Assembly (NCBI GenBank): GCA_000092065.1
Contig: CP000596.1
Length of the DNA: 64,000 nt
Source: Ostreococcus lucimarinus
Lineage: Eukaryota
Strand: one strand, 5' to 3'
A program made the position numbers and the translations under genes. Shown here piece by piece: positions 29,819-51,699 of the stretch (position 1 is its first letter; each line of letters begins with the position of its first letter). The notes beneath the pieces were generated by a model that was not told the DNA's origin, did no database searches, and saw nothing but the letters and a program-made list of their open reading frames with translations.

Positions 29819-32215
29819 ATGACGACCGATGGCGTCCATGCCGTCGCTGTCGTCGCCGTCGACGCGCAGGCGAAGGGAGACGCGCGCGATGGTGACATTC
29901 AGCCCGCGGCGGCGCGCAGGCCCCCCGCGCTTCGCGTCCCGACGCCAAAGTACGACAACACGATGAGTCCTATGGGGCCGCTCTCGTCGCGTCGGTCGAC
30001 TTCGAGCGATTCCGCGGATGACACGACGATCGATTTCGACGATGACGACGAAGGGCCGATGAAGTCGTGTATTTTGCGTTTGCTAGATGGCGACAACGTC
30101 GCGAGAGAAGTCGTCGCTCGAACGCGCCGCCGCGACGTCGCGCTCCGACGACGGTTCAAAGGCGAAACGTTCGTCGTCGCGCGCGCACACACGAAATACG
30201 AGCGGGAAAAATGCTGCGCCGCACGAACGTATCAGATGCACGTGCTGCGATCGAGTGGGACGTGCGAGGAAACTTCTCGGTACGCCGCGGCACAGGCGTG
30301 TGAGGACGACGTCGCCGAGGTCAACTCCGATCCGGGCACGATGGAGTACTTCGTCGAGGTCGACGACCCGTTCGACACAAAAGTGTACGGCGTCATGCGT
30401 TTCGTACGGCGAGACGTGGACGCGTTGTTGAGAACTAGATTCGATGTTCCGACTCGCGAATCAATTTTGGGCGTCGACTTCGTCGTCGACCGGTTCTTCG
30501 CCACCACTGCGGCGAACGAAATCGCGGGCGAACCGGATGGGGCGACGTTTATTCGAACGCTCATGCTCGATGCCACTCGCAAGGAGGCTTGGCGAATGTC
30601 GCCGTGTCGCGCGGTGCCCATCTTGAGCGCAGTGCCGATCGACGTCGAAGGTGTCAAAGTCTTTGCGCATTCCGCGCGCGACGTCGCGGTGGTGGAGTGC
30701 GACGGCGTCGCGTGCGACGCCGACGTCATGGCTGAGCGTGAAGATTGGGTCACGCGCAAGTTTCTTACGTTATACGTCGTCCCGGCGTCGGCGCCCAACG
30801 AGGCTAAGAACGCGCTTTCGCCGGGCAAGAAGACTTGGCTCGCGTTTGCCGAGGCGCGCGGCGAGACCCTTCGCGACGATGCGACGAACGACGACGCACC
30901 GATGATTTTGACGCTTCACGCGTGTGCGCGGCAGAAAATCGAGTACAACGAGTCTATTCGACTATCATGTATGTATATCATCGCGGAAGCGTGCGGGGAA
31001 ACGCTCTCGGATGAGGAATCAGCAGGCGCCGTCGTGGACGCGCTCGGGTGCGCGCTTCGCGACGATTCCGGAAAGATTTCGCACACGTTGGAATTCGAAC
31101 GAAACGTCTCGCGAGATTTCGTCGATGCCGTCGAGTTTGTGCGCGGTGAGGACGCGTCGTCAACGAAACGCGCCGTGGTGTGCTTGCGCACCGCCTGCGA
31201 TGACGCAGATATTTTTATGGAATCGTTGGAGTCGTCCATGCGCGACGCGGAGACGGATGCCTGCGTGCTCGTCGCTCGATGCTCGACTTACGGCGATCAC
31301 TTGACGTTGTGCGACGGCGACGTGCTTCTTAGCGAAGCTTTAGCGCGCGCCGCATCGAGAGGTCTGTTCGTCGACGGCGGCGTATTCAAGGCGTTCGTGC
31401 GCGAGGACGCGTGTATCATCACCGCCCGTTTTGCGCGACGAGAATTCCGCGTTCGGCCGTCGACGCTCAAAGACGTCGACGCGTTGGTCGCCATCGAGGC
31501 CGAGGCGTGGGTTGAAACGCCAGAGATGCGGACGTCGCCGGAGACCGTGCGCGAGCGCGTTCAAAACAACGCGAGCATGAACTTTGTTGTGGAAGACATC
31601 AAGAGTGGAGACGTCCGAGGCGTCATGTACACGCAATACGTCGAAAGCGTCGACGCGCCGCTCGACGCCACGTGGGAGACGAAGGAGTCGAATCGCCGCG
31701 AGCCGAAATCGACGGATGTCGTTCAACTTCTGGACGTTTTTGTGGATCAGGCTTACGGCGCGAGGTGTGCGAGCGATTCGGGCGCGTCCGTCGGTCAAGA
31801 GCTTCGTAATTATGTGTTACACTACGCCGAGCAGACGGGATTGAGATACGCGTGCGCGGTGACGCGAACGCGAGGATTTCGCTCGACGCAAGCTTTGAAT
31901 CCGAATCTCACGTACGAAGCATACGTCCACGGCGACGCGCTCGATCGTGGCGTGTTCTTCCACACGTCTGCTGGCGCGGAAATCGTGCGCGTCGTTCGTC
32001 CGTGGCGCGCGCGCGATTATGAAAACGAGGGGGCTGGCGTTCTCATTCGGTACGACGTGCGCGAGTACGCGTTTGCCGACGCCGCGCGACGCGGTCGCAC
32101 CTCGCGCGTTCGCCGTCGTCCGAGCGACCCGACCGTGCGCGAAGGACGCGAATACGTCAACGCTCTTGAAAGCGTCGCGTGGGAAGCGCGCGCGCGCGCT
32201 TTTCCCGTGGAATAA
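29819..32215 (+). CDS. hypothetical 798-aa protein, possibly with a GNAT-like acetyltransferase fold at the C-terminus
   Basis: Long mixed-composition ORF; RPSTLKDVDALVAIEAEAW...NFVVEDIKSGDVRGVMYTQYV...LRNYVLHYAEQTGLRYACAVTRTRGF reminiscent of GNAT motifs; first ATG downstream of the Ham1 stop is at 29819. Confidence 0.4.
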   Translation: MTTDGVHAVAVVAVDAQAKGDARDGDIQPAAARRPPALRVPTPKYDNTMSPMGPLSSRRSTSSDSADDTTIDFDDDDEGPMKSCILRLLDGDNVAREVVARTRRRDVALRRRFKGETFVVARAHTKYEREKCCAARTYQMHVLRSSGTCEETSRYAAAQACEDDVAEVNSDPGTMEYFVEVDDPFDTKVYGVMRFVRRDVDALLRTRFDVPTRESILGVDFVVDRFFATTAANEIAGEPDGATFIRTLMLDATRKEAWRMSPCRAVPILSAVPIDVEGVKVFAHSARDVAVVECDGVACDADVMAEREDWVTRKFLTLYVVPASAPNEAKNALSPGKKTWLAFAEARGETLRDDATNDDAPMILTLHACARQKIEYNESIRLSCMYIIAEACGETLSDEESAGAVVDALGCALRDDSGKISHTLEFERNVSRDFVDAVEFVRGEDASSTKRAVVCLRTACDDADIFMESLESSMRDAETDACVLVARCSTYGDHLTLCDGDVLLSEALARAASRGLFVDGGVFKAFVREDACIITARFARREFRVRPSTLKDVDALVAIEAEAWVETPEMRTSPETVRERVQNNASMNFVVEDIKSGDVRGVMYTQYVESVDAPLDATWETKESNRREPKSTDVVQLLDVFVDQAYGARCASDSGASVGQELRNYVLHYAEQTGLRYACAVTRTRGFRSTQALNPNLTYEAYVHGDALDRGVFFHTSAGAEIVRVVRPWRARDYENEGAGVLIRYDVREYAFADAARRGRTSRVRRRPSDPTVREGREYVNALESVAWEARARAFPVE

Positions 32216-32270
32216 TTGGAACACTGTACAGTAACATTACACAATATGTACATTTACGTAACACATTACG

Positions 32271-33032
32271 CTAATCAGAGTCTGAATTATCGCTCGCGGT
32301 GAGTAAAAGATCCTTCGCGGCGTTGATCTCTTGCATCTTTTCTTTACCAGCCGGCCCGACCTTGTCCGTGTGATGCAGCTTCGCCTGTTTGTAAAAAGCT
32401 TTCGTGATCTCCCTTTTCGTCGCACCTTCTGTCACCCCCAACGTCTCGCGCGCCGACTGCATCGCGTCGTCGTTATCATCTGCGGCCGGCGTGGTTTTGA
32501 TGATTTGACGCTCGTTCTCCGCTTCCTTGTTCCGTTGCGCTCTTCGCTTTCGTCGACGACGGCGAAGGATATAATCCTCCGTCGCGGCGTCTTGGTTGTT
32601 GTCCATCCCTCCAAACTCTGCCAGCGACGATCCCACTTCGACCTCCGGGGTTTCCGGTCCTCCCGCGTCGGCGTTGAGTTTAACGTGTCGATTAATCTCG
32701 TCGCCGACCCAATTCGCCTCGCGAGAGTCTCTCGCGCGCCCCGGTCTCGCCGACGCGCCGTGTTGCATGCTCAATTGCTGCCCTCCCGCGATTTTTCGGT
32801 TGTAGTACACGCTCAGCGCGCGCCGACCGACGCCGCGGTCGATGACGCGGTCATCGTTCGCGCTCGCGACGGGCGCATCGCGCGCGCGCGGCGTCGCGAG
32901 CGCCAACGCGCCCCCCGTCGCCAACACCATGATCGTCAACACCCAACGCGCGCGCGCGAACGCGCGGTGACGCGGGCGATCTCGCGAGGCGTCGACCTCG
33001 CGCGCGGGCGCGGTGATCTCGATGTCGGACAT
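32271..33032 (-). CDS. membrane-associated J-like domain protein (HPD replaced by HTD)
   Basis: C-terminal GVTEGATKREITKAFYKQAKLHHTDKVGPAGKEKMQEINAAKDLL has J-domain helix II-III architecture but HTD in place of HPD; N-terminal hydrophobic helix WVLTIMVLATGGALALA. Confidence 0.5.
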   Translation of the reverse strand: MSDIEITAPAREVDASRDRPRHRAFARARWVLTIMVLATGGALALATPRARDAPVASANDDRVIDRGVGRRALSVYYNRKIAGGQQLSMQHGASARPGRARDSREANWVGDEINRHVKLNADAGGPETPEVEVGSSLAEFGGMDNNQDAATEDYILRRRRRKRRAQRNKEAENERQIIKTTPAADDNDDAMQSARETLGVTEGATKREITKAFYKQAKLHHTDKVGPAGKEKMQEINAAKDLLLTASDNSDSD

Positions 33033-33253
33033 CGTCGACGAACGCGCGCCGCGCCGACGGCGAGTGCGGGCTCTTACTTGATCGAGTCTCAGGTCGGTCG
33101 AGGAGGCCTAAACCCGCCGCAGTCGGCGAGACGCGAGCGCGCTCACTGTTAATGTTCAATAAAGATGTTGCATTAAAGATGTCGCACTGTAAGTTGTACT
33201 GTAGAGTTGAAATAGTTAAAATGACGGTGTTTTGGATTTTACGTCCAAGTCAA

Positions 33254-36200
33254 TCAGATGACGGAGCTGTAGCCGTCGACTTGGCGTGACGTCGTCGCGA
33301 CGAGCGACGTACGTTCGGACATTTCGGCGTCGGCTGGACGCGCGCGCGCGCGGAACGCGAACGCGAACAGCGCGACGCACAGCGTGAACGCGAAGGGAGT
33401 GTAAAAAATTGCGACCTTTTGACTGCCGTCGATGTCATCTTGAGGGCTCGATGATGCGAGAGATGATTTTTGTCGTGGAGAAGATCCCGACGACCCTAGT
33501 TGTGGCGTTTCGGCGGTGCTCGCGCCGACGCGCACAGGTGCGACGAATTCAAACTCAGCCGCTGGGTTGCCTGCGACGTCGGTCACTTCCGTAACAGTCA
33601 CTTTGTGATAGCCTTGTGAAAAGTATGGAAACTTCATCAACCAGTGACCACCAGCGCCATCGTTAACGCATTGAAGGACGTACTGTCTCAAGTCTTCGTT
33701 GGAAACGGCTTCGAAGGGACCCGTCGACGAGTTGCCTCGCTTGGCCGTGATCACTTGCTTCGTGCAATCAATGTCTTCCATGAAATCGACGCGTTGCGTT
33801 ACCTGTGAGCTCACATATTTGAAATCACCGACGAGCGGGTCCTTCGTATCTATCTTCACCATGAGATTTTGATCGCTCACAAATTCGTGCACTGACGGCT
33901 TTGCGAGGTGAGATCCGCCCACGCACATTGTTTTCAATCGGATATCATATTTCCCATCTTTATATCCACTCAGAAGTTTGTTGTAAGGGTCGTTTAGATC
34001 CCAGTCAAAGATGCAACCGTCTCCACCCCGCGACTCCGGGCAAAGTAAATTGAAATTCTTATTCGTGCCGGCACCGCGCTCGGCGTCTTTCGCTGTGATC
34101 CATTCGCCTCCTGATACCGAACGATATTGCACGTAGACGTAGGCGAGATTCCCATTCGTCACCAACGCTTCGGACGTGGATGCAGTTTCCTTGGGCCAGA
34201 GAGAATATCTATTCGGATTTACGACCGAGATGCTCAAAACGCTCGAATCAGACGCTGCGCTCTTCTCAAAGTAACTTGCTTCCTTGCTGAGCGTAGACGA
34301 GTGAAAAGCAACTTGAGGGCAATCTTTACTCCACGACATGGCACCGAGTGTAACACTGCTCGAGATGATCGGGCGATACATGTATTCTTCAATCATCGAC
34401 TCACACAAGCTCACCAAGGAAATCCCCAGGTACGAGCTTTCATACACTCCGTCGCTTGGCTCCACGCTCAGAAGCACGCGACTCTCGCGCACAACGCTTT
34501 GCGAATCCATACGCTCTCCAGCCAATCTTCGTAGAGGTAGGACTTCACCGAATGACCACATTTGAATACCATTGATCGAGAACTTCATTCCCTGTAGGAG
34601 TGTTCCTTGTGCTGTAGTGGTTTGCGTGAGACGAGCGATTGCGTTTGCCAACAATCTCCCTGCTCTGACGCTCATTGACTGTTCGTATGACGCTACGATG
34701 TCTTCAATCCGCGCCTTCAGGTCTTGAATGTCATCAGACTCTGACGCAAAGCATTCGTGGCTATCCGCCATGGCGTATGCTGCATTCTTTACGAACGTTG
34801 CGTTGTCCTCGTTCAACTGTGCCGCGTTATGAGCAGCCGCGATGATTTTTCCAACGCAGTCGGCGACTCCATCTACCAAACGAAGGCCCATGTTGGCCAC
34901 TTCCTTGTAGGGCGACTCATTGCTGATGAGAAGTTGGATCAAAGCGTGCTCTCCTGGGTTCAGATTCGTGTTATGCGTCGACTCCTTACCTATGGTAACG
35001 CCAGCTTCTCGGAACATCGTCCATTTTTCTCCCGGACATTGACTTCTGCCGCCCATCGTGATGAACACTGGAGATCCGAAACGTTTGTCGGAACTGACCT
35101 GGAGCACAAACTTATCCCCAAAATCTGGGTCACCTAATGAGTACATCGTGCTCATGTGTTCATACTTTGCCCAGGCAAAGGCACGACTTTTTGAAACTGA
35201 CTTGCTCATATCCGTGGTAGCACCTACATGCCCCTTGACGATGGCGATTGAACCCGCGAAGGAGTATCCGTTTTCAGCTGAGCCGTCCAGGCTGAGCGTC
35301 CATGCGTAATCTTGACCGTCGACGTTTTCGTTGGAAGAAAATATGTACTCTGTCGAAGCACCACCGCCGCTAAACGATAGTAAAATTGCTTCATCAGCGG
35401 GTCCATTCGAATCTGTGGTGGAGTAGCCGCGGGGACCCATACGCCCTGTAAACGACGCATCGACTCGTTTCGTATCGTTCATGTAAATGGATGCATCCTC
35501 TCCGAGCGTAAGATCGCTAAGATCGCTCGATTGAAGTAGTTGTGACGACACGTCTAGAGCCTGCGTTTTGCATTTTTCTGTGATGCAGGATGAAACCGTG
35601 TTGTTCAGATCTTCACGAGTGGGGCTATTCATCCCCATTGTCGTGACGAGCTCATCCGCTTCTTGAAATTGCTCGAGGAACTTCGGCTTCATCCTTTCAC
35701 TCTTTCGTGACCAGAAAACCTTGCCGACGTCTGGGGTGGCGTCGTTATCGTCGTCGTCACCGCGGAACCCAAGGTTTCCACTCAACAAGTCTGAAAATAA
35801 AGTCCCGGGATTGCTAACGTAGCCACTGATGAGCTGGGACAATCGAGATTCATCCGTCTCATCCGAGAGAATGAAGTCGTTAAGTGTGTCTATAGTACCA
35901 TCCGCGTCGCCCAAGTCCCCTGGAACGCCATGTATGTATGGACTAACTCTGTCGATTCTCTTCCAAGCAAGCTTCAACTCGTCTATTGGGGTAGAAATCG
36001 GACCGCTCGCGTCACTTATGAACGATGTTTCCATTTTCTCGGCTTCCATACCGAACGCGGATTGTTCATCCATAAAAGGAACCATGATGCGCTCCATTGC
36101 GCCGTAGTTTTTACCGTACAACACGGGAGCGCCTTCCGCAGTCGGCTCCATAGGAACCTTGTACACTGTTGGCGAAGCCCACAAAAGTGTGCGTTGCCAC

Positions 36201-39200
36201 ACGTTAATTTTGTCAGCGATGTACTGTGGCCAATTAGGCGCTTCCATTTTAGAATCATCCCCGACGATGAGGCCGCTTTCCACGACGGAAAGCAAATACC
36301 GCAAGTTTGGAATCACTTTCGCTTCAATCGAGTGTACCGTGAATATGTAGGACGTGGGTTTCCTCGGCATCCATGTGATCGCCGTCGATATCCGCAAGCA
36401 CGGTTTATCGTCTTCCCTTAGCGCAAGATCGAGCGTATCGGCTAGCCTGTAGACAAGTTCAACGCCGCCACCTAGAATCGCATCGCCCTGTCGTCCCGGG
36501 ATGGCGACGTCGGTACTTGTCCGTATGACACGATTTATCGTAGCCGTGAGATCCCAACCGACGGCGGAACTCTGAGCGACCGAAAATTCTGGTCCAGACT
36601 CCTCATGGTATGCGTCAAAATCTATCTTAAAGAGAGGCATTCCGAGCTGGAATAAAACCTCCATGCCATACCCAGCGCCGAACCCAGGTTTCGCCTCCAC
36701 TTCGAGTTCTACGCCGCCACCGCCTTCGTGTGAACTCGACACAGACGCCGCTTGTTCGTCTGAAAGCTCCACGGACATGGTCACTTCCGTGCCCATAAGA
36801 AGTTCGGCGTAAGAGTTGCCACCGGGCGGATCATGTACCGTCATGTACACCAAACCTTCGAGTGGAACAGTTGCCCAATACACGTCATCGCTTTCTTCGC
36901 CGTAGATCCCTTCGCCTCGCGGTTTCGAGCCAAGAGAGATGAGCTCTCGTTTCAACGGAACTGTCACTGTCATCGAACCATCAAATCTACCCACAGTCAG
37001 TTCGACAGATCTGCGGTAATTTCCTGAGAGCTTAGGATCTCCCGCGACAATGAGTCGATCCGTCGTCTTCTCGCCCTCATCCGTGGGGAATAAAAGTTTG
37101 TCGCTCTCCGGATCGATCTCAACGTCAAAGTCGCACAATGGTCCTCCATTGCGATCGGTATGACATGGATTTTCGGCTATATCGGTGACGCTTTGTCTGA
37201 ACATGGCCACCGTCATCCCGCCGCTCTCGGCGCTAGGCAGTGTCAAGCATTCATCGAGTGAACCATTCTCCACATGCAGTTCAAGTACTTTGGCGCTCAC
37301 AAGTTTCGGCCCCAAAGCGTAGAGCCCTTCTCCACCGAAATCATCAAAAAATGGCGATATCCCAACAAAGTGGTTGTGTCTAATGCCACCAGCTTTCACG
37401 CCATCAACGTCCCAGCAGTAATCGCCATCGTCGGTGATTACAGAAAGATCTACGAACTCTGCGCACAAATAACCGTGGTACTTGTATCTCGCCGAATACC
37501 AAGTGTGCTCAGTGCGTAATGGTACAAGCCTTTCGATCGTTGTTGGATGCTGGCGGAAGTATGGAATGATGCCGTCTACTCCGACATGACACAACGCGTT
37601 CGGATATTTCTCCTCGCGCATCGCCGTGAAATTCGCTGTGGATGGGGCCTCTTCGATCACTACCGAGTAATCCATCGCGGCGAGTGGCCACCGTCTTCCA
37701 TTCGGAACTTCTTGATATGTTGGTATAACGTCTGAGTTTTCCTTGTCGCGGTCAGGTAGAGTCCAGCCGGATACTTGAGCCGAAGTGAAGATGGCTGGTG
37801 GGTGACAGCCATTGATGGGGGTAATTTTGAAAGTCGCCCCTGTGTAAAGCTTTTCACACTCACCTTGATAGACACCCAAATCGACGTTTGCCGTCGTCGT
37901 GTCTGAGAAGAAAATGTACTTTTTCGATGATACGGCGTGGAGAGTAACTGTGGTCGGTTTACCGTCGCAGCTCCAAATTCTCGTAGCTTCCACGATGGTG
38001 GTTCCCGAATAGCAGATTTCGTGACCGGGATATTCCGCGGTTATCGTGTAGGTTTTCCCGTTTGTGACTGCGAATTCGAACCAGCCAGTCTCGTCTGTAG
38101 TGAATTGTCGCGGCGCACCAGCCTCGCTTTCATCTTTGACATAAATGCTTGCCTCAAAAAGTCCACACTCGGACAACTCGGTCCATTCTATTGGGAACAT
38201 GACGGCACCCAAAATGACCACTGTCGTATCGTCCTGCATTTTCTGCTCTACCTGATGATTATGGGTCAGCTCCAGGTTGATGACATCAATATCAGCCGTA
38301 TCCGAAAATACGGTATCACTTTCATATAGGTCACCATCGTCATCCGAAGTTCCAGCTTGCTTGACGACGTCATTGTTGTTGAATACATGCACGATTTCTG
38401 GCAGCTGCTGCGTGCTCCACAGCGCGACATCCAATCCAGGACGAGTGACGCGCGCGAACAGCGTCTGCGGATCATCTTGAACCACGTCGTGCAGTAGTGC
38501 GGCATCTAAGTCAACGAAAATCTTATTCGAGCCGGGAGATGTAGCAAGTAACGGTGTTGCATACACGGAGGTCTCATCGCCGACGACAATGGCATCGAAC
38601 TCGGCGTCTTCGAGAGGGCGACAGTGATCGATTTTTGACACAACATCACCCCCACTCTCTGCGCTGAGCTCATCATACCACTCGTTCCATCCCTCGGAAG
38701 AGTACGGAACGTGGGCTGATGTCGATCTTCGAACGATGAAATTTTCGCACGCTTTGCCAAACACTTGGCTACGCGCATCCTGGTGAGACTCGTCGGCGAT
38801 CGCAGCGCTAACACTCTGCACGGTGAACAAATCGAAGTCGTATGTAATTTTCCGCGGAGGGAATACGAGCACTGGCTCGACAAACAATGTCCGTTGAGCC
38901 AGACGATGCGCCACACTGAGGAATTCTTGTGCGTTCAGAAGTCCATCACCGTCCATATCCAACGACGAATTCCAAAGTTCTTCTGAAATTATCGCGTACC
39001 CATTGCTTGGAAAACTCGCACCTTTCTCGATGATGGCGGTCAACTCTGACTTATCGATGCCCCCGCTTCCATCTGTGTCTGTCTCGTCAAAATCGTGCAT
39101 CGGTGGTGGAGGCGATGGCGGTGGTGGCGATGGCGGCGGCGGCGATGGCGGCGGCGGCGATGGCGGCGGCGGCGACGGCGGCGGTGGCGACGGTGGCGGC

Positions 39201-42200
39201 GGCGGCGATGGCGGCGGCGGCGACGGCGGCGGCGGTGACGGTGGCGGCGACGGCGGCGGCGGCGATGGCGGCGGTGGTGATGCGATGCGCTCGACCCAGT
39301 GAACGTTTGTGAGAGAACCGGCCTTGACAGAGATATCCGCATGCAGCGGGTACTCGGGAGTCTGTTGACTGGTGTAAAAGCGAATTTCATTCTTGAAGTA
39401 CTCCACGGCTCCGGCGTCGTTGATGACGATTTGCAGCGAGTCGGACGAAGAGTAAGTCCCAGCCATCGTATACTCACGCTTGCCTTTCTCGTACACCTTG
39501 ATCTGTTTGGTATGCGTACAAAAAATCGCAAAATCAAGACTTTGATAATTCGTCGAATCCGTCGTCGACTGAGAGTTCAAACCGATCATCCTGTTGTTGT
39601 ATCCTCCGGCACAGACTGCGGAGATGCCACGCACAGAGTCAGAACCATTTCGAATAGCGCGCTGACTCACCGCACCGGCGTCCCAAGCGCCAGTCACTGC
39701 AGCCGTGCGCGTGACTTGGCCGCTTTCTGTGGATTCGACGCCGACTTGCGATACCCACGCGACATGATCGTCCGCCACCGCCTTTCCTGGCGGCGGCGGC
39801 GGCGGTGACGGTGGCGGCGGCGACGGCGGCGGCGGTGACGGTGGCGGCGGCGACGGCGGCGGCGGCGGCGACGGCGGTGGTGACGCGATGCGCTCGACCC
39901 AGTGAACGTTTGTGAGAGAACCGGCCTTGACAGAGATATCCGCATGCAGCGGGTACTCGGGAGTCTGTTGACTGGTGTAAAAGCGAATTTTATTCTTGAA
40001 GTACTCCACGGCTCCGGCGTCGTTGATGACGATTTGCAGCGAGTCGGACGAAGAGTAAGTCCCAGCCATCGTATACTTACGCTTGCCTTTCTCGTACACC
40101 TTGATCCGTTTGGTATACGTACAAAAAATCGCAAAATCAAGACTTTGATAATTCGTCGAATCCGTCGTCGACTGAGAGTTCAAACCGATCATCCTGTTGT
40201 TGTATCCTCCGGCACAGACTGCGGAGATGCCACGCACAGAGTCAGAACCATTTCGAATAGCGCGCTGACTCACCGCACCGGCGTCCCAAGCGCCAGTCAC
40301 TGCAGCCGTGCGCGTGACTTGGCCACTTTCTGTGGATTCGACGCCGACTTGCGATACCCACGCGACGCTACCAAGTATCTCGCCCGCCACCGCCTTTCCT
40401 GGCGGCGGCGGCGGCGGCGACGGCGACGGCGGCGGCGGTGACGGTGGCGGCGACGGCGGCGGCGGCGATGGCGGTGGTGGTGACGCCATGCGCTCGACCC
40501 ATTTAACATCGCTGAAGGAACCACGCATAATAAAAGCAACATCCGCGTGCAGCGGGTACTCGGGAGTCTGTTGACTGGTGTAAAAGCGAATTTCATTCTT
40601 GAAGTACTCCACGGCTCCGGCGTCGTTGATGACGACTTGCAGTGTATCGCTGTCCGTATACGCCACTGCAGCACCCTTAATTTTTTTACCACCTTCGTAC
40701 ACTTCAACTGCATCGGAGTGAAAATTGCATCTGATGCTGAAGTCCATTCGACTGGACACGGTCTCTGCCGCGGACTGCCGATTCAAGCCGATGAACTTGA
40801 GGCCGGACTCAGACCCACAACGAGCCGAGATTCCGCGCACTGAGTCCGTCAGGCCGTGGATCGACCGACGACTCACCGCACCGGCTGCGGAAAAATAATT
40901 CCACCAATTTGGAGATCGCCGCCAAACTTTTCGATTCGACGCTTTGGCTCTGCGAAGCGTCACCCAGACCACGTTGCCAACCGCCGCTTTTTCAGGCGGC
41001 GGCGGCGGCGGTGGCGACGGCGGCGGTGGCGACGGCGGCGGTGGTATGTACTGCGCAATGTTCCCCAGGAGGCGGCGCCCCCAGCGCTGCCTACCCAAGA
41101 GTGACGTCGTGGTTTCAGGAGATGACGAATCATCTTCCTTTAAGACCAATAAGACTTTACTGGGTACGTTCAGCGGGTCTGTCACGTCCGACGTTTGCAA
41201 GATGGGCTGCGTCGTCTTTTCAAAAACTTCCACTTTGTACGCCCCGATGTCAACGTGAGTTTTGATTGGCGTCATACCCGTGGAGTCTGTGATATGAACA
41301 ACAAACGATCCTTCCGAATCAGTGACCGCGCTGAAAGGGCATCGCGTCTCACCACCCAATACTCTTATTTCAGTCAAATTGACGTCTCGAACCGCCACGA
41401 CTGATACAAACTGCCCGTGCATCGCCTGCACAGTGTCGCCCCCGCCCCCCCCGCATGTAAACGTCAAACAGTCTGCGAATTCATCACTGACATCAGACGG
41501 ATCGTGGTTACATGCATATCCATAATTAGTCGTGTCTTCGGGATCGATTTCATGCACGTGCACTTTCATCGGTAAACTAAGCGTCGGACTCGCCTGTTGC
41601 CGAAATTCAAATCCCGTTACTTCAACTTTGCTCGATTCCGCACCAAACGAAATCTCGGGGAAAGTTATGTATTGATCTTGAGATGATATGAGGGTGGCGT
41701 TGAAACGTCTCCACGATTCCTCATGTATGGTGAATGATTCCGTACTGGCGTCAGTGGCGGATGTTCCGCGCAAGTCGATTGACACCGCGCGTTCACCACC
41801 CAAAGACTTCGCCCAAAACGACACCACGACAGAATCTCCAGTCAGGGCGCGCAAAGACTCGCCAGGAACGTGCACCGTGACTGAAACGCCTGCGTCCACC
41901 GATTTTACAACGTCCTCGAAACCAGGTGGAGGCGCAGTTGGGCTCGCGGTTAAAGGACTGATGGCGCTTGTCTGAACAAGCTCGAGGCGTTCGGTGAGAG
42001 TATTAAGAGTGAAATGAGCTCCGGTGAAGTAGAACGTACTTTCCGACCAAGCTGATACAGTAAATCCGACGAAAGCGGCGTCCTCTAACGTGTGCTTAAG
42101 CCTTATTTTCCTCCATTTATTCGGTTCAGCTGTAATGACGAGCGCGTCACCAACGGTCTGACGGCCTGCTGCTGTAGTTTGTTGTTCATACCCTAAAATC

Positions 42201-45162
42201 TGGAAAGTCATAATCGCCTCCTTCCCGACGGCGCGTACCCAGCATTCCAACAACACTGTATCACCAGCTTCGGCGTCTAGTCGATCAGTATTTTTCGCCC
42301 AGAGTTTCTCGTCTGCTCGCACGAGTCGGATGACATCATTCTCGTAACGAGGTGGATCAACGATCACGTCTGGATCATCGCCTGTATCGCCAGAATACCC
42401 CAGTCGGTCGGTGAGAGAACCCTCGGCAAGTTGGCGTGCCTTGATCGATTGCGGCTGTAGACATACTTGAACACTGCCTATTGACATCCAAAGACCAAGA
42501 TCGACGCGCGCGTAGCCACCCGTCGATACGACGACAGATTCACCGGTAGGTATGTGATTCCCATCGGTGAGCGTGTACGCTTGTTCATTCAAAGGGTTTG
42601 AGTATGCGTGCTTGAAAAGTGCGACATTGCTGGAAGATGATTCGACGTCGTCGCTCGGCCGTAAAGTTATCGTCGAATTCTCATTTTCATCCGCGTCTGG
42701 AGGCCTGGACCCTCGGTAATTTGCGACCTCCCCATCTATTACGATCGGGTCGTGAAAATTAGCGCATATTCGGACGTCGGGTACTGGAACAGCGGAATCA
42801 CCGGCGTACACGTAACCACCTACCTCTCCGTGCCAGGGCGTGATGAATTTGAAAGGGACAGAGTTTATACTTCCACCGGATGATGTTTTCGTCACCACCT
42901 TATACTTCCAAATCTGTCCTGGGATTGCCGCCGCCTCTCTGTCGGCGAAAAGCAACGGCGCGTACGATCGATGACAGTACGTGAGGCCACTGTCAATCAT
43001 CACCACTGACTCATAAGGTGCATCCGTCAGAGAATCCTGCATGCTTTGACGAAGAATCTCGAACCCAACGTCATTCCAGGCGGTATCACGGAAGCTGAAA
43101 GTGACTCCTACTGGATCCAGTTTTCCGTTGACGTCAATAGTAGAACCATCGTAGTACAATCCACCTCCACATTCAAACTTTGAGTAAGTTTCCTCGCGAG
43201 CGTCCGAAATGACGCCACTTAAACACACAATTCTTCGAGCTTTTGGTGCGGATGATTGACGAAGCACGCAGCGCTTGTAATGTCCACATCTTACGGTATC
43301 AATGAACATCACTTCGCGTATCACTCCGGTATACACTCGAACGTCGTCGAATTCAAAATCCACCGCGCCAAGCAGTGTAACGTCCGTCATTGACTCGAGC
43401 GCGCTCAGCGGCCAAGTTTCATCGCGCGTGTAAGTCGTATCATCGATTACTGTGGCCTTTGCGTCACTCGTTGGATCTACGTACAATGTCATGAAATTCA
43501 CCGAGTTTACGGCGAACGCGATGAGGTGCCACTCCCCGTCGCACGCAAAATCAAGTTTCACATCCTTTGAGGATGTGAAAGCGCTCGGAGGATCCACAGA
43601 CTCCTTGACCTGATGAGATGCCCGCAGTTCGACCATGCCGTCGCTCGTACGTATCTTGAGGTATACGTGGAGTCTGTGATCGTGAAGTCCCAACTGTCCT
43701 TGAAACTGAGCGACCGTCATGAGTGATTCGTCGTTGGAGGATTTGGGTTGCGAGCAACGACTTGGATCGATGCGCACCCATGTGCTCATCGCGATGTCGT
43801 GCCCAAGCGTATCTTCTTTATCAAGAGAGTATGAATAATCGTTCGTCCCAGGATCATCCACTGCTTGAAGGCAGCGAAATCCGTTGCCCCCCGAACATCC
43901 CGATATTGTGCGAGCGGATTTCGGCTGCAATCTCATCGGGACGGAAGACTGTCCGTCGACGATTGGCGCGACCGAATCAAGCGATCCGTCGTGTAAAGGG
44001 TCTTCATCAAACGTAAATGCTGCCACGAGAGAAGCGTGTTCGTCGAGAAAGTCACTCGTTGCTGGGCGAATGTCCGTGAAGGAGATGGGAAGTTGAAGCG
44101 TCGTGCCGCCGACTTCATACTCTTCAAAGCGCACATCGACGACGTCGTCGACTGTACCGTCGGCAACGTTGATCTGATTGAAGAGTATACCATCCACGTA
44201 TGCGCAGACGTAATCGCCGTTCGTTGGCTTAGGACTGTACGACCATGCAGTGGTGAGCCCGTTGAGGCCACTCACACAGCGATTCTCCGTTTGCCAGTCG
44301 AGAGTCGGATAGGTGATGCTATCGATACTGAAACTGTTCGACGGAGCTCCGCTGCACTTGACGGGTCGAACGGGGATTTCCATCACGTCGACAATAGACA
44401 CTGCCAGATCTGTGTCGTGCGCGGCGCGAAATTGGTCATTCCAAACGTTGAGAATGTACCTCGAAACGCTTTGTTCCACCAACATGGCCTGAAGTTCATT
44501 CAGTCGCAGCAGTCCGTCGCTGGGATCGACGTCGTGCCTACGAAAGATGCTTTCCTTTGTCTTGTAAATTTCGCCATCATCGCACAGCACGTTGTTGAAT
44601 TGATCGTTACTCAGCAATATGTACCGGACCAGTTCTTCAAGCCCCGAATTCTGATTCGCGCTCGCTTGGCCGGCGGCGTTGAATCCGAGAGGCAGGTGCA
44701 AATCGCAACCCTTGATAACTTCGAAAGAGTGTTGACCAACGGTTTCCGAACCTGGAACGATGCCATCGACCGTAACAAAGTGACAGTTATAAGTTATGGT
44801 GTGAGATCCAACCGAGTGCGTCCCATCCAACTCTGTGAGCGCGAGCGCCTTCGGGAAAAAATCATTCCATTTGCGACACGGTAAGTTATCCGCGTAATCC
44901 GACTCGGAACACGACTGATCGTCTCGTTTCACGCGAACATCGCATCGGAGACCAAGCGCGTGATTGCTCACGCTCTCTTCATTCACATTCAGTAAACAAT
45001 CGCTCGCTTCAGCGCACGCGGGATGATGCACCGCGACTTGGAAATCGTACGAGTACGCCGCAACCCTCTCCGTGGTGGAACCAAATCTCACTTCAATCGC
45101 AGCACCGGCACCAGGCGGCGGCGGTGGACTCGGCGGCGGCGGGCTCGGCGGCGGGCTCGGCG

Positions 45163-45202
<40 letters not shown>

Positions 45203-45484
45203 CGGACTCGGCGGCGGCGGCGGGCTCGGCGGCGGCGAACAATTCGCTATACCCTCGCAATTCTCCGTTCGTGTTTGTCCCTCATACGCTCCACAACTTC
45301 GTCCACCGTTTCGCGGCTTGACGGTGATCGTGAACGTCTGCGAGTACGTCGCCGGTCCGCAAAAAGCCGTGCAACTCCCTTGCCAAAAGCCTACACAATC
45401 CGTTTTCGGCGGCGACGGCGACGACCCCCCGTGGACCCCTCGCAGCGACGACAGCGCGCTCGCGACGACCAACCCGCGCATCAT
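33254..45484 (-). CDS. giant single-exon cell-surface glycoprotein (about 4,076 aa from the MMRGLVV signal peptide); predicted type-I membrane protein with a hydroxyproline-rich/extensin-like multi-domain ectodomain
   Basis: Uninterrupted 12.3-kb ORF. MMRGLVVASALSSLRGVHG signal peptide; Cys-rich TSP1-like module (SCTAFCG...KPRNGGRSCGAYEGQTRTENC); many S(P)4 runs; two perfect EF-hand loops (DTDGSGGIDKSE, DMDGDGLLNAQE); three 201-aa repeat modules; C-terminal TM IFYTPFAFTLCVALFAFAF plus a 30-aa tail; GC about 48-52% versus 65-70% in flanking genes. Confidence 0.8.
39103..41040. repeat. 3 x 603-bp coding tandem array inside the giant gene (units begin near 39291, 39894, 40497) separated by GGC/GGT-rich Pro-linker DNA
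   Basis: Antisense ORFs at 39299 and 39902 translate identically over more than 150 aa (exact 603-nt offset); third unit at +1206 is more diverged; each unit encodes a 201-aa module ending ...AVEYFKNEIRFYTSQQTPEYPLHAD. Confidence 0.85.
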
Positions 45485-45569
45485 CGTTCGCGTCGCGTCC
45501 CATCGACGTCCGGCGCCATCGCGCGTCGTCGACCGCGACGGCGCGCGTCGTTCGCGAAGCTGACGCGGC

Positions 45570-45602
<33 letters not shown>

Positions 45603-46218
45603 GTCGTCCGTCCTCGCGCGCGGCCCTCGCGCGGGCGCCGCGTCGTCGCGCGTCGGGGGTTTCGGTTCGCTCCGCGTTCGTCGCGCTCGCGTCGCGCGAT
45701 GCCGTCGCGCGCGCGACGAACGCGCGCCGCGACGTTTGGGGGAGGTGTTGCGTCTTTTCAAAAAAAAACGAGGGTGTTACAAGGGTGTTACGAGGGTGTT
45801 GCGCGCGGGGCGTTACAAAATAAACGTCTAGGCTAGTTGGAGGACGCGAGGTCGAACGGATTGTTTTCTTCGGGATTCAATCGAATTCTTCGGAATTCTT
45901 GGAGATGCGAGCTCCGCAGCGGACCTCGCGCCCTACGCCTTCGCCCGATTTCGGCGAACGAACGAACGATCGCTCGCCTTCCGGCGGCGGCGCCGACAGC
46001 CCCTCGGGACTGGCGACCACCCACCTGGGAGGAGGGAAATCCCTGACCGCGATGCGCACCATCTCGAATGCGCGCACTCGGGATGATCCACGGACCCGCG
46101 CGCGCGCATCCGAACGATGCGGTAGGGAGTTTCTTTCGACCGACGCTTTTTTTTGTTTGACTTCCGTCGCCCCCGAAGGCGCGTCGACCGCTTCCATCGT
46201 AAAATTCGCGCGCGTCCG

Positions 46219-46764
46219 CTACATCTCGCCGCACTCCGCGATCACGCACGGCAGCTTGGGCTTATTCCCGCCCCCCGTCGCCACGTTCTCCACCTTTCTA
46301 ATCACCAACATCCCGTCTCCCAGCACGCGTCCGAACACCACGTGCTTATCGTCCAACCACTCCGTCTTCGCGCACGTCACGAAGAACTGGCACCCGTTCG
46401 TGTCCGGCCCGCTGTTCGCGCTCGACAGCAACCCCGCACCCGTGTGCCTGCCGACGAACGCCTCGTCGTCGAACTTCGATCCGTATATCGACGCGCACCC
46501 CGTGCCGTCGCCGTTGACGAAGTCCCCGCCCTGAATCATGAAATCCTTGATCACGCGATGAAACGCGCACCCCTTGTACCCTCGCGGCGCGCCCTCGCGC
46601 GAGCGAAACTCCCCCGCGCACATCTGCCTGAAGTTTTCGCACGTCTTCGGCGCGACGTCGGCGAAGAGCTCGAACGTCACCCGCCCCGCGCTCGCGCCGC
46701 CGATCGTCACGTCGAAGAAAACCACCGGATTCGAGTCGACGCGCGCGCGATCGTGCCACGACAT
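46219..46764 (-). CDS. CYP: cyclophilin A-type peptidyl-prolyl cis-trans isomerase
   Basis: [35 protein letters not shown]...[15 protein letters not shown]...[12 protein letters not shown]...HVVFGRV is canonical cyclophilin. Confidence 0.9.
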
Positions 46765-47713: not shown

Positions 47714-48035
47714 AATCTCACGCGCGTGATTTCACGACGGACGCGACGAGACGTCCAAAATTTTACTTACACGTTACACGACGCAAACGCGCGACTGGGA
47801 GACGGCGACCGCCGAAAGACAGACACGTTGAGGGGGGGTAGATTTTTTACCCGCGGCGCTCGCGCCGCCGGTGTACTTCTTGTAGCTTTCTCTTAGCGTT
47901 GTCAGATACGAAATGATACGAATTGCGTGACTTTCGTTTACCAGCCAAACTTCGTCAAGGGCGCGCTCTCGCGAGACGTCGAGTTTAAAAGTTCAATCTC
48001 ACACTACACACACCGCTCGTTCGATTCGTTCGCCG

Positions 48036-48827: not shown

Positions 48828-49118
48828 CGTCGCGACGATCGGGACGCGCGTCGATCTGCGGCGCCGCACACGCGCGCGCGGGAGACGCGCGGCGCGGCGA
48901 CGACGATGCGCGCGGCGACGCGCGCGACCGCGGCGCGCGTCGCCGCGACGCGCGCGCGCGCGCGACGCGCGAGGGCGACGACGATTCGCGACGACGATTC
49001 GACGCGGCGTCGTCGCCGCGCGTCTCGCGCCGAGGCGCGGCGCGGCGACGACGACGACGGCGCGAGCGGCGCGAGGGAGACGGCGCCCCGCGCGTCGGCG
49101 CAGGCGCGGGCGTCGGCG

Positions 49119-51315: not shown

Positions 51316-51516
51316 GGCGCGACGCTTTTCGCCCTTTCGCGTCTTCTCGACGCCGTCGACGCGTCGTCGGGCCGCCGTTCGGCGTCGCGAGGCGGTCGGT
51401 CGGCGCGCGCGCTCGCGCGCTCGCGCTCGCGCGTCGCCGCGCGCGTCGGCGTCGGCTCGAGGCGCGCTGTGCGGCGTCGACGCGCGCGCGGGTTATCCGG
51501 AGCGGCCGTCGCCGCT

Positions 51517-51536
51517 GAACCCTAGCTAGGGTTTAG
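51517..51536. promoter_or_regulatory. telo-box-like palindrome AACCCTAGCTAGGGTT in the OR/SUFE3 bidirectional promoter
   Basis: ctgaaccctagctagggtttagac: 16-bp perfect palindrome whose arms are AACCCTA; TAGGGTTTAG matches the plant-type telomere repeat TTTAGGG. Confidence 0.35.
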
Positions 51537-51699
51537 ACGTATCCATCGCCGACGCCGTCGCCGCGACACGGCGACGCGCGCCGACCGCCCGACGCGCGCG
51601 CGCGACGCCGACGCGCGCGCGACGCTCGCGCCGACCGCCCGCGCGCGCCGACGCGCGCCGACGCGCCGACGCGCCGACGCGACGACGCGAAACGTCGCG

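What the first reader, a model, noticed from the sequence alone, without database searches (positions are those of the whole stretch)
33254..45484. 12.3-kb single-exon gene forms a low-GC compositional island in otherwise 65-70% GC DNA
Hand-counted stretches inside this ORF run about 47-52% GC with abundant A/T-ending codons (aaa, ttt, gat, caa). Every neighbouring gene (cyclophilin at 46219, J-like gene at 32271, all others in the window) is strongly GC3-biased. The drop is confined to the coding body; GC rises again at both ends near 45400 and 33100. In prasinophyte genomes low-GC outlier regions are associated with lineage-specific, fast-evolving surface/glycosylation genes and viral interactions, so this gene may be a foreign or recently acquired addition, or be under a distinct mutational or expression regime. 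It is the strongest candidate for something undescribed in this window.
Basis: partly seen in the sequence, partly recalled or inferred. Interest (0 to 1): 0.8.

Follow-up and report, generated by a model that had tools for sequence, protein, structure and literature searches.

The report
Giant surface-protein gene with unbiased codons
The low-GC island is a real 12.3-kb intronless Ostreococcus lucimarinus gene for a 4,105-residue membrane-anchored surface protein of an undescribed green-picoalga family; it looks foreign only because its codons lack the GC-ending bias of its neighbours, a trait most family members share.

Summary
ORF 33254..45571 (-) has GC 0.54, GC3 0.57, and GC at four-fold sites (GC4) 0.59. 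Thirty other window genes have GC4 0.85±0.05 (z = -4.9). Codon use is nearly flat (Nc 55, others 29-46).

The window is Ostreococcus lucimarinus CCE9901. The product is a predicted type-I membrane protein: signal peptide, SPPPP linkers, lectin-like and β-sandwich modules, EF-hands, and one C-terminal transmembrane helix. About 2,800 conserved residues match no Pfam or PDB sequence.

A foreign origin is not supported:
- No viral homologue was found.
- The family occurs in at least 34 lineages, including Bathycoccus.
- In 23 of 27 testable lineages the gene is GC4-poorer than its flanks.
- The J-domain gene in the same block has normal GC4.

A 14-kb block holding this gene and the small J-domain membrane-protein gene is missing at this site in O. 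tauri and in another Ostreococcus. The pair sits elsewhere in other lineages, once next to a telomere.

Best explanation: a native gene whose long interior escapes the GC enrichment seen near gene ends and carries little codon selection. It is also 3-4× more polymorphic than its flanks. Function is unknown; a surface adhesion or recognition role is inferred.

The parts
33254..45571 (-). Giant single-exon ORF ('BIG'): 4105 aa from the first ATG. The stop codon is at 33254-33256. The probable true start is Met29/30, at 45487/45484.
   Evidence: GC3 0.573, GC4 0.591, Nc 54.6. Homologues are collinear.
45428..45487 (-). Putative cleavable signal peptide (aa 29-48, MMRGLVVASALSSLRGVHGG)
   Evidence: Read from the sequence. 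Homologue P0099 starts directly with a hydrophobic signal-like segment. No predictor was run, so this is an inference.
45239..45403 (-). Cys-rich, TSP1-like N-terminal module (aa 57-111)
   Evidence: PF19028 TSP1_spondin, E = 0.054. This is below the Pfam threshold and only a hint.
45113..45238 (-). Ser-Pro(3-5) extensin/HRGP-type linker 1 (42 aa)
   Evidence: Across the five linkers, CCG accounts for 118 of 148 Pro codons.
41045..45112 (-). N-terminal globular region (aa 154-1509). Its first ~900 aa form the conserved family 'head'. It includes an EF-hand-like loop (aa 347-359) and a ConA/LamG-like segment (aa ~514-749; 43325-44032). aa ~1060-1400 are lineage-specific.
   Evidence: alignment A4 has many invariant Cys, Trp and Gly. 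Homologues P0018 and P0301 hit PF13385 Laminin_G_3. There is no PDB sequence match.
39101..41044 (-). Repeat cassette: three ~170-aa modules, R1 40484-40993, R2 39884-40399, R3 39281-39787. They are separated and flanked by SPPPP linkers at 40994-41044, 40400-40483, 39788-39883 and 39101-39280.
   Evidence: R2 and R3 are 98% identical at the nucleotide level, and R1 is 63% identical to them. Module GC4 is 0.64. The sister lineage L027 is ~250 aa shorter here. The modules are conserved in L017 at 49%. There is no Pfam or PDB match.
38912..39091 (-). EF-hand pair (aa 2161-2220)
   Evidence: EF-hand_1/_6/_7, E = 1.6e-5 to 3.7e-4, just under the Pfam cut-offs. The same domain is found in 6 of 19 homologues and gives weak PDB S100/calbindin hits.
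33452..38854 (-). Conserved C-terminal family module (aa 2240-4040). β-sandwich stalk at aa 2448-2878 (36938-38230). Unmodelled motif core with VHDPPGG (36818-36838) and PGRxGDxILGGG (36464-36499). FSGGG (35360-35374) and GDKFV..DKRFG.PVF (35063-35119). Helical insert plus FnIII/Ig-like domains at aa 3525-4013 (33533-34999).
   Evidence: about 150 invariant residues across 19 sequences; pLDDT ~90 for aa 2448-2878. CnaB pilin, SdrD and teneurin-type folds; titin FnIII, insulin-receptor and CD45-type folds. Sequence searches match only EF-hand (PDB, weak) and CarboxypepD_reg (Pfam, sub-threshold).
33365..33427 (-). The only strongly hydrophobic 19-aa window in the protein. It is read as a transmembrane helix (aa 4049-4069, VAIFYTPFAFTLCVALFAFAF).
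   Evidence: Kyte-Doolittle peak 2.1. An equivalent segment occurs in all full-length homologues.
33257..33364 (-). Short basic cytoplasmic tail (aa 4070-4105, RARARP...DGYSSVI). Homologues end in ...YG(S/T)xL.
   Evidence: The positive-inside topology is an inference.
32271..33032 (-). Partner gene: a 253-aa single-pass membrane protein. It has a conserved juxtamembrane motif (..ANWVGDEINRHV..) and a C-terminal J domain whose HPD motif is degenerate (HTD).
   Evidence: PF00226, 35.3 bits; the motif is conserved next to BIG in L007, L017, L034-36 and all O. lucimarinus-type contigs. GC4 is 0.78.
45572..46218 (.). Unusually long (647 bp) upstream intergenic region with (GACGCC)n and GTAACACCCT repeats. 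It is presumed to be the promoter region and lies inside the lineage-specific block.
   Evidence: (GC 0.65)
32209..46206 (.). Lineage-specific 14.0-kb block: partner gene, BIG and the upstream region. About 140 bp stand in its place in O. tauri and in L014.
   Evidence: alignments stop at 46207-46209 and resume at 32195-32208; gene order; the block is present at the same site in sister lineage L027. No terminal repeats were found.

Best explanation
The island is a native gene, not imported DNA. It encodes a giant type-I membrane glycoprotein of the hydroxyproline-rich type, belonging to an uncharacterised Mamiellales family.

Its low GC is purely a synonymous-site effect, because the gene's codon use is almost unbiased. 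Ordinary Ostreococcus genes reach GC4 ≈ 0.85 although mutation itself is AT-biased. Two forces push them there: selection for GC-ending optimal codons (mainly NCG), and a GC-enriching process concentrated near gene ends, most likely GC-biased gene conversion starting in promoter or intergenic DNA.

In a 12-kb gene most codons lie far from either end, and codon selection appears weak, presumably because expression is low. The interior therefore relaxes to a plateau of GC4 ≈ 0.5-0.6.

Shown: the composition, its restriction to third positions, its occurrence in most family lineages tested (23 of 27), the gradient from gene ends, the flattened codon table, and the absence of donors.

Inferred: the identity of the forces (gene conversion versus selection), low expression, and the protein's role. 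I read the protein as an extended cell-surface adhesion or recognition molecule that works with the adjacent small membrane partner protein.

The gene and its partner form a block that changes genomic position between lineages. It was inserted at this site in the O. lucimarinus lineage, or lost from it in the others.
For: 1. The effect is at third positions only. GC4 is 0.59 against 0.85 ± 0.05 and Nc is 55 against 29-46, while GC1 and GC2 lie within the range of neighbouring genes.

2. Most of the family shows it. Among 27 lineages with at least 600 flanking codons, the homologue is GC4-poorer than its flanks in 23 (mean -0.106, Wilcoxon p = 2.5e-6). The deficit grows with flank GC4 (rho = -0.59). 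The homologue's own GC4 is independent of its background (rho = 0.18). Examples: L007 0.605 against 0.66-0.96, and L008 0.535 against 0.70-0.95.

3. Inside the same 14-kb block, the partner gene has GC4 0.78 and the intergenic DNA has GC 0.65. A donor signature would affect the whole block.

4. There is a gradient from gene ends.
- In the 30 other genes, GC4 falls from 0.85-0.88 within 100 codons of a CDS end to 0.70 at 500-725 codons.
- BIG falls from 0.82 to 0.52-0.58.
- A two-exponential, position-only model fitted to all genes reproduces both means: BIG 0.585 predicted against 0.575 observed, others 0.829 against 0.832. The residual BIG effect is an odds ratio of 0.73, p = 0.01.
- Eighteen full-length homologues pooled go from 0.72 at the ends to 0.56 in the interior.

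5. The codon table flattens. NCG codons fall from 0.66-0.75 to 0.32-0.43, while C-ending four-fold codons do not change.

6. Literature:
- O. tauri optimal codons are nearly all GC-ending, and codon bias rises with expression (PMC3673656).
- Mutational equilibrium GC is 37-46% against 56-64% observed in O. tauri, O. mediterraneus and Micromonas, with biased gene conversion invoked (PMC5455958).

7. No donors were found. IMG/VR gave none. GTDB gave one 24-28% hit on a 45%-GC contig that is a single open frame, probably a mis-binned eukaryote.

8. Within-species diversity is 13.9 differences per kb in BIG against 3.3-4.4 in the flanks, as expected if its synonymous sites are less constrained.

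9. Protein architecture.
Against: - When the positional model is fitted on the other genes alone, it predicts only 0.71 for BIG (asymptote 0.685) against 0.575 observed.
- At matched distances of 50-725 codons from an end, BIG is 0.15-0.3 lower than other long genes. A gene-specific component therefore remains unexplained.
- A log-length regression predicts 0.72 ± 0.055 (t = -2.3).
- Expression was not measured. In O. tauri, codon bias correlates only weakly with expression (rho = -0.22).
- Pooled intergenic GC (0.646) is higher than BIG's GC4, so 'neutral' is not simply 'intergenic-like'.
- Some lineages, such as L034-39 and L041, have GC4 0.70-0.75 with little deficit, so the trait is not universal.
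- The Akashi-type test was uninformative in both BIG and the flanks.
- The block is absent at the syntenic site in sister species. A relocation from a lower-GC compartment cannot be dated or excluded for this particular copy.
Confidence: 0.55

Rival explanations
1. The gene and its partner moved recently to this site from a lower-GC compartment of a Mamiellales genome, such as a small or big outlier chromosome or a subtelomere. The gene has not yet ameliorated to the local composition.
For: - The 14-kb block is absent at the syntenic site in O. tauri and L014.
- Homologues sit in different contexts in every lineage. One is 3.7 kb from a TTTAGGG telomere in DNA of 0.54-0.60 GC.
- L010 and L020 lie in generally lower-GC surroundings.
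Against: - The partner gene and the intergenic DNA of the same block have normal composition (GC4 0.78; GC 0.65).
- The same island recurs independently in high-GC contexts (L007, L008, L068 and others).
- The block already sat at this site before the split from lineage L027 (flank dS ~0.1).
- GC4 rises at both ends of the gene, which fits in-place equilibration.
Confidence: 0.15
2. Foreign acquisition: the gene came from a prasinovirus, a bacterium or another eukaryote and keeps the donor's composition.
For: - The compositional anomaly itself.
- Absence at the syntenic site in sister species.
- One 24-28% match on a contig binned as a gammaproteobacterial MAG.
Against: - No relative in 2.9 million viral contigs, and only generic Ig-like fold matches in BFVD.
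- The 'bacterial' contig is one open frame of more than 4.4 kb at 45% GC. It is more distant than Bathycoccus and is probably a mis-binned eukaryote.
- The family has at least 34 lineages with eukaryote-type features: signal peptide, SPPPP linkers and a C-terminal TM anchor.
- The anomaly is confined to third codon positions.
Confidence: 0.04
3. Selection favours AT-ending or rare codons in this gene. Possible reasons are slowing translation for co-translational folding and ER translocation of a 4,000-residue multidomain protein, or avoiding mRNA or DNA structure.
For: - The trait recurs across most of the family, independent of background GC4.
- BIG's GC4 lies below pooled intergenic GC.
Against: - Codon use is flat (Nc 55-56) rather than biased towards a different set of codons.
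- The SPPPP linkers use the normal preferred CCG codon.
- Conserved and variable residues do not differ (OR 0.86, p = 0.29).
- Several lineages have GC4 0.70-0.75.
Confidence: 0.08
4. A gene-specific recombination or diversity regime. As a hypervariable surface-recognition locus under diversifying or balancing selection, the gene has unusual recombination dynamics. These both elevate diversity and weaken net GC-biased conversion.
For: - Polymorphism is 3-4× that of the flanks.
- dN/dS is 0.44-0.58 against 0.19-0.45 in the flanks, and 0.73 in the partner.
- Divergence from lineage L027 is mosaic: the N-terminal half is 98-100% identical while the flanks are ~95%. The 38000 switch appears in both assemblies; only L027 covers the N-terminal half.
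- Repeat copy number differs between lineages.
Against: - The mosaic shows that recombination does occur within the gene, which would be expected to raise GC, not lower it.
- Diversity in the repeat cassette is inflated by alignment ambiguity.
- No site-level test of positive selection was possible.
Confidence: 0.15

Closest known systems
[quoted passage not shown]
   Same: GC4 declines with distance from CDS ends in all long genes of the window and in 18 homologues. The longest gene has the weakest bias.
   Different: The effect here is extreme (ΔGC4 ≈ -0.26) and produces a visible 12-kb island. BIG is also lower than other long genes at matched distances. No recombination data exist for this species.
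Low-GC outlier chromosomes of Mamiellales (BOC1 and SOC; PMC3491373)
   Different: The drop affects one gene on an ordinary chromosome. The flanks, and even the co-inserted partner gene, are normal. There are none of the small AT-rich introns typical of BOC1.
Giant hydroxyproline-rich glycoproteins of green algae, such as the Chlamydomonas sexual agglutinins SAG1 and SAD1 (my own knowledge; not tested by sequence)
   Same: Length of 3,400-4,100 aa, globular domains joined by Ser-Pro(n) shaft or linker segments, and a secreted or cell-surface location.
   Different: No sequence homology has been shown. BIG is anchored by a C-terminal transmembrane helix, has short linkers rather than a long shaft, and carries a conserved 1,800-aa module of unknown fold core.
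Stalk-type adhesins and receptor ectodomains built from tandem β-sandwiches (CnaB pilins, SdrD, SiiE, teneurin, titin FnIII, CD45)
   Same: The AlphaFold2 models of aa 2448-2878 and 3525-4013 are strings of such domains.
   Different: Only the generic fold matches (TM-scores 0.1-0.3, sequence identity 8-13%). This says nothing about ligand or function.
Membrane-anchored J-domain co-chaperones (DnaJ, PF00226)
   Same: The partner protein has a bona fide J domain, above the Pfam cut-off, and one TM segment.
   Different: HPD is degenerate (HTD) in O. lucimarinus and intact in L007. The whole J domain is missing in lineage L034/35. The conserved part is a different juxtamembrane motif.

Membership tests
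Mamiellales low-GC outlier region (BOC1/SOC) | Low GC extends over many adjacent genes (the whole SOC, or the BOC1 sub-region) | tested here: not met
   Only one ORF is low. The 30 other genes have GC4 0.76-0.96, including the adjacent partner gene at 0.78.
Mamiellales low-GC outlier region (BOC1/SOC) | [quoted passage not shown] | tested here: not met
   A single uninterrupted 12,318-nt ORF, collinear with its homologues.
Horizontally acquired gene (viral or bacterial donor) | Closest relatives lie in a donor group outside the host lineage | tested here: not met
   IMG/VR: no relative. GTDB: one 24-28% hit on a doubtful MAG contig. The closest relatives are 34 picoalgal lineages, including Bathycoccus.
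Horizontally acquired gene (viral or bacterial donor) | Absent from the syntenic position in sister taxa | tested here: met
   O. tauri (two assemblies) and L014 have ~140 bp in place of the 14-kb block.
Horizontally acquired gene (viral or bacterial donor) | The compositional anomaly is shared by the whole transferred segment and by all codon positions | tested here: not met
   The partner gene and intergenic DNA of the block are normal. GC1 and GC2 lie within the range of neighbouring genes.
Hydroxyproline-rich glycoprotein / extensin-like | Ser-Pro(3-5) repeat motifs | tested here: met
   Five linkers totalling 179 residues of SPPPP/SPPPPP.
Hydroxyproline-rich glycoprotein / extensin-like | Entry into the secretory pathway (signal peptide) | tested here: inconclusive
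   Hydrophobic N-terminal segment at aa 31-48 after Met29/30. Seen by inspection only; no predictor was available.
Hydroxyproline-rich glycoprotein / extensin-like | Prolyl hydroxylation and O-glycosylation | not testable with these tools
   Requires biochemistry.
Chlamydomonas-type sexual agglutinins | Sequence homology to SAG1 or SAD1, and gamete-specific expression | not tested
   No reference sequences or expression data were available. The resemblance is architectural only.
J-domain protein (the partner gene) | J domain above the Pfam gathering score | tested here: met
   PF00226: 35.3 bits against 27.8 for the window protein, and 57 bits for L007.
J-domain protein (the partner gene) | Intact HPD tripeptide, needed to stimulate Hsp70 | tested here: not met
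   The window and L027 read HHTDK. L007 reads WHPDK. L034/35 lack the domain.
EF-hand calcium-binding domain | Pfam EF-hand above the gathering score | tested here: inconclusive
   24.7 bits against 25.0 (EF-hand_6) and 24.3 against 25.4 (EF-hand_1). The domain recurs in 6 of 19 homologues, and the DxDxDG loops are visible.

The most novel reading that the evidence does not exclude
BIG and its small membrane partner form a two-gene cell-surface recognition cassette, either a mating or self-recognition molecule or the prasinovirus attachment target. The cassette relocates between chromosomal sites, including subtelomeres. Its distal N-terminal half is exchanged between otherwise ~5%-diverged Ostreococcus lineages. 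Its elevated diversity and unbiased codons would then reflect an arms-race or recognition locus rather than mere low expression.
Probability: 0.12. Interest if true: 0.7.

Novelty: new variant of a known kind. Interest (0 to 1): 0.42.

Why it matters
**Method.** A sharp single-gene GC island in a compact high-GC genome need not mean foreign DNA. It can be the interior of a very long, weakly selected gene. That interior gives a rare direct view of where synonymous sites settle when the forces that enrich GC near gene ends fade. This makes the relative roles of codon selection and biased gene conversion in Mamiellales testable.

**Biology.** Ostreococcus is wall-less and scale-less, and almost nothing is known about its surface proteins. 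This gene belongs to a conserved but undescribed family of 3,000-5,500-residue membrane proteins. It has a linked partner gene, a variable genomic position, high polymorphism, and signs of exchange between lineages. These make it a concrete candidate for studies of adhesion, mating or virus adsorption.

**Annotation.** Gene finders trained on GC3-rich codon use may fragment or miss such genes. Metagenome gene calls here split it into pieces of 1,948, 2,637 and 3,925 aa.

Tried and rejected
- **Exact look-up of the 4105-aa product:** not on record.
- **Annotation status in the NCBI O. lucimarinus record:** could not be established. The NCBI contig was never shown. A second homology search with the N-terminal 901 aa returned only one hit, so that tool is insensitive here.
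- **PDB sequence searches:** the profile of the C-terminal module (A1), repeat module R2, and the N-terminal region gave nothing beyond weak EF-hand hits.
- **Pfam on remote hits** that match only the VHDPPGG..PGRxGD region: no domains except one LamG.
- **AlphaFold2** could not model aa ~2883-3139 or aa 3359-3524, the most conserved motif regions (pLDDT < 50).
- **The afdb50 fold library** was unavailable.
- **Transposon-like borders of the 14-kb block:** only GC-rich low-complexity matches, with no inverted or direct terminal repeats.
- **Apparent repeat-number variation in L001, L002 and L004:** each break leaves a ~100-nt unaligned stretch in the scaffold, which I took to be scaffold gaps (not inspected), so I did not count it as variation.
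- **Akashi-type test** (preferred codons at conserved residues): not significant in BIG (OR 0.86) or in the flanking controls (OR 1.10), so uninformative.
- **Gene length alone as the explanation:** rejected as sufficient. The regression predicts 0.72. Flanking ORFs of 1,000-1,500 aa in other lineages average 0.73.


Full report
**1. Observation**

The window holds one uninterrupted minus-strand ORF, 33254..45571, of 4105 codons.

Composition:
- GC in 300-bp windows is 0.47-0.54 through the gene body. It is 0.55-0.62 at 38.9-41.3 kb and 0.65-0.66 in the first ~650 bp.
- The flanks are 0.60-0.72, and the rest of the window averages 0.638.
- GC1/GC2/GC3 are 0.568/0.472/0.573. Every plausible neighbouring gene has GC3 0.72-0.90.
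- GC4 is 0.591, or 0.573 without the Ser-Pro linkers. Thirty other genes have 0.850 ± 0.053 (minimum 0.764), giving z = -4.9.
- Nc is 54.6-56.3 against 29-46. Pooled short intergenic DNA has GC 0.646.

It is a synonymous-site phenomenon.

**2. Source organism and population**

- The cyclophilin at 46219..46764 is identical to Ostreococcus lucimarinus CCE9901 XP_001422030, on a 428,333-bp chromosome.
- Ten metagenome contigs at ≥99.2% identity (the six compared), from Tara, JGI and other surveys, all carry the giant gene next to cyclophilin.
- Gene callers split it into pieces of 1,948, 2,637, 3,925 and 4,006 aa.

**3. The protein**

From N to C terminus:
- A signal-like segment (aa 29-48).
- A Cys-rich module with a sub-threshold TSP1 hit.
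- A 42-residue SPPPP linker.
- A ~1,350-aa globular region. Its first ~900 aa are conserved family-wide and include a ConA/LamG-like segment (homologues hit PF13385).
- Three ~170-aa modules separated by SPPPP linkers. R2 and R3 are 98% identical at the nucleotide level, and R1 is 63% identical to them.
- An EF-hand pair.
- A ~1,800-aa conserved module.
- The only strongly hydrophobic segment in the protein (aa 4049-4069).
- A 36-residue basic tail.

Structure and homology:
- AlphaFold2 with a 19-sequence alignment gives confident tandem β-sandwiches for aa 2448-2878. They resemble CnaB pilins, SdrD and teneurin.
- It gives FnIII/Ig-like domains plus a helical insert for aa 3525-4013. These resemble titin FnIII, the insulin receptor and CD45.
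- The most conserved motifs stay unmodelled: VHDPPGG, PGRxGDxILGGG, FSGGG and GDKFV..DKRFGxPVF.
- Those motif regions match nothing in Pfam or PDB by sequence.
- An exhaustive HMMER pass over 1.84 billion representatives finds only 128 proteins at E ≤ 0.001 (20 at E ≤ 1e-30).
- One cluster contains Bathycoccus prasinos CAL6312315.1.

I read the protein as an extended type-I cell-surface glycoprotein for adhesion or recognition. This reading comes from the architecture only.

**4. Synteny**

- O. tauri (CAID01000017.2 and RCC1115) and another Ostreococcus (L014) keep the gene order on both sides: AAA-ATPase, FKBP, NadA, SATase, SUI1 and cyclophilin on one side; a ~770-830-aa gene, U-box, zf-C3HC and CYP38 on the other. 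Flank protein identity to the window is 52-93%.
- Their alignments to the window stop at 46207-46209 and resume at 32195-32208. About 140 bp stand in place of 14.0 kb.
- The missing block contains both the giant gene and the J-like gene (32271..33032), plus a 647-bp upstream region. No terminal repeats flank it.
- A sister lineage (L027/L028; flank dS 0.07-0.15) has the block at the same site.

In other lineages the giant gene lies in unrelated neighbourhoods. In L007 and L034-36 it is again followed by the small partner gene. In L017 the partner lies head-to-head upstream, and the pair sits 3.7 kb from TTTAGGG telomere repeats.

The partner's conserved part is an N-terminal TM segment plus the motif ..HGxSAxxGxxRxxxxAN(W/Y)VGDEIxRHV... 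Its J domain is canonical (HPD) in L007, degenerate (HTD) in O. lucimarinus and absent in L034/35.

**5. Is the composition a donor signature?**

No, for five reasons:
- IMG/VR holds no relative, and BFVD gives only generic Ig-like fold matches.
- The single GTDB hit is a 45%-GC contig that is one open frame, 24-28% identical. It is best read as a mis-binned eukaryotic family member.
- A metagenome scan returned 79 loci. Clustered at 90% identity, these and earlier loci give 34 lineages.
  - In 27 lineages with at least 600 flanking codons, the homologue's GC4 is below its flanks in 23. Mean Δ is -0.106, Wilcoxon p = 2.5e-6.
  - The deficit scales with flank GC4 (rho = -0.59, p = 0.001).
  - The homologue's own GC4 (0.45-0.74) is unrelated to its background (rho = 0.18).
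- Within the O. lucimarinus block, the partner gene has GC4 0.78 and the intergenic DNA has GC 0.65. In L007 the partner has 0.88.
- GC1 and GC2 lie within the range of neighbouring genes.

**6. What sets the composition?**

*Positional effect.* In the other 30 genes, GC4 falls steadily with distance from the nearest CDS end: 0.85-0.88 within 100 codons, then 0.83, 0.80, 0.75 and 0.70 at 500-725 codons. The giant gene goes from 0.82 in the first or last 50 codons to 0.52-0.58 deep inside. It rises again at its 3' end, to 0.83 over the last 57 codons.

A logistic model with two exponential terms for distance from the start and from the stop, fitted to all genes, reproduces both means. It predicts 0.585 for BIG against 0.575 observed, and 0.829 for the others against 0.832. 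A residual BIG term has odds ratio 0.73 (p = 0.01). Fitted to the other genes alone, the model extrapolates to only 0.71.

Eighteen full-length homologues pooled show the same edge-to-interior decline, 0.72 to 0.56. Bathycoccus is flat.

*Codon table.* The table flattens rather than shifts. NCG codons fall from 0.66-0.75 to 0.32-0.43. C-ending four-fold codons are unchanged. A- and T-ending codons rise about four- to seven-fold in the Ala, Pro, Thr and Val families.

*Literature.*
- O. tauri optimal codons are GC-ending, and bias rises with expression (PMC3673656).
- Mutational equilibrium GC is 37-46% against 56-64% observed in O. tauri, O. mediterraneus and Micromonas, with biased gene conversion likely (PMC5455958).

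*Reading.* My best explanation is that the island is the interior plateau of a very long gene. That interior receives little of the end-associated GC enrichment, and codon selection on it is weak. A gene-specific remainder is still unexplained, because BIG is 0.15-0.3 lower than other long genes at matched distances. Low expression is inferred, not shown.

**7. Evolutionary dynamics**

- Against lineage L027, dN/dS is 0.44-0.58 for the giant gene, 0.73 for the partner and 0.19-0.45 for the flanks.
- Divergence is mosaic. Window 38000-39500 and 41500-45000 are 98-100% identical, while the flanks and the C-terminal half are ~95%. The switch at 38000 appears in two independent assemblies. This suggests recent exchange of the distal half between lineages.
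- L027's gene is ~250 aa shorter in the repeat cassette.
- Among 20 same-species contigs, the gene shows 13.9 differences per kb against 3.3-4.4 in the flanks. The repeat cassette inflates this figure.
- Counts of nonsynonymous differences equal or exceed counts of synonymous ones.

**8. Verdict**

The 'foreign DNA' reading is not supported. The 'distinct regime' and 'lineage-specific surface gene' readings are supported.

The compositional phenomenon is an extreme case of a known kind. The protein family, its linked partner and its positional mobility are undescribed, as far as my literature searches went.

Noticed in passing
window 32271-33032 (-); L007:6016-6822; L017:3-620 (-); L034:7275-8075: A small single-pass membrane protein gene lies next to the giant gene in at least four lineage groups, even though the wider neighbourhood differs. 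Its conserved part is a juxtamembrane motif (AN[WY]VGDEIxRHV). The C-terminal J domain is intact (HPD) in L007, degenerate (HTD) in O. lucimarinus and missing in L034/35.
   Followed up: partly
window 38000-45000 compared with L027 and L028: Mosaic divergence between two O. lucimarinus-like lineages. Flanks and the 3' half of the giant gene are ~95% identical, but 38000-39500 and 41500-45000 are 98-100% identical (N-half dS 0.015 against ~0.10). The switch at 38000 is seen in two independent assemblies. This points to recent recombination or introgression of the distal half.
   Followed up: partly
whole window; e.g. 11119-15465 (+), 25912-28863 (-), 54752-57475 (-): Every long gene shows a gradient in GC at four-fold sites, from ~0.9-0.95 at the 5' end to ~0.7 inside. 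Several rise slightly again at the 3' end. Across 30 genes, length and GC4 correlate at rho = -0.63.
   Followed up: yes
L017:17300-17575 (ENA long-read contig of 421,853 bp): The contig ends in TTTAGGG telomere repeats. A full-length homologue lies ~3.7 kb from them. That homologue is broken into many short frames, which could be long-read indel errors or a pseudogene.
   Followed up: partly
window 39281-40399: Modules R2 and R3, with their linkers, are a ~600-bp tandem duplication that is 98% identical. Lineage L027 appears to have one module fewer.
   Followed up: partly
L005:19561-19588 and L103:19734-19793 (≈ window ~36.8-37.0 kb): In two chromosome-length metagenome contigs the giant gene is called as two pieces (2,637 + ≥440 aa; 2,666 + ≥1,239 aa). 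This could be a frameshift or stop variant, or an assembly error.
   Followed up: no
L100 (NZNP01000101.1, 'Gammaproteobacteria bacterium EAC81' MAG): The 4.46 kb fetched from this 8.4-kb, 45%-GC contig is one open frame that runs off the contig end. It is collinear with aa 1343-1466 and 2162-2887 of the giant protein at 24-28% identity. It is probably a eukaryotic contig mis-binned into a bacterial MAG.
   Followed up: partly
window 45572-46218: This intergenic region is unusually long for the genome (647 bp). It carries (GACGCC)n just upstream of the first ATG and three GTAACACCCT-type repeats followed by a T-run.
   Followed up: no
window 48000-49999 and 51000-51999: These flank bins show within-species diversity as high as the giant gene (9-17 differences per kb), while adjacent bins show ~0-2. 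I did not examine whether this reflects low-complexity coding repeats or intergenic DNA.
   Followed up: no
one search hits P0278-P0366: Dozens of otherwise unrelated proteins of 900-2,100 aa match only the VHDPPGG..PGRxGDxILGGG core (query aa ~470-670) at 27-32% identity and have no Pfam domains. This suggests an undescribed domain with a wider distribution.
   Followed up: partly
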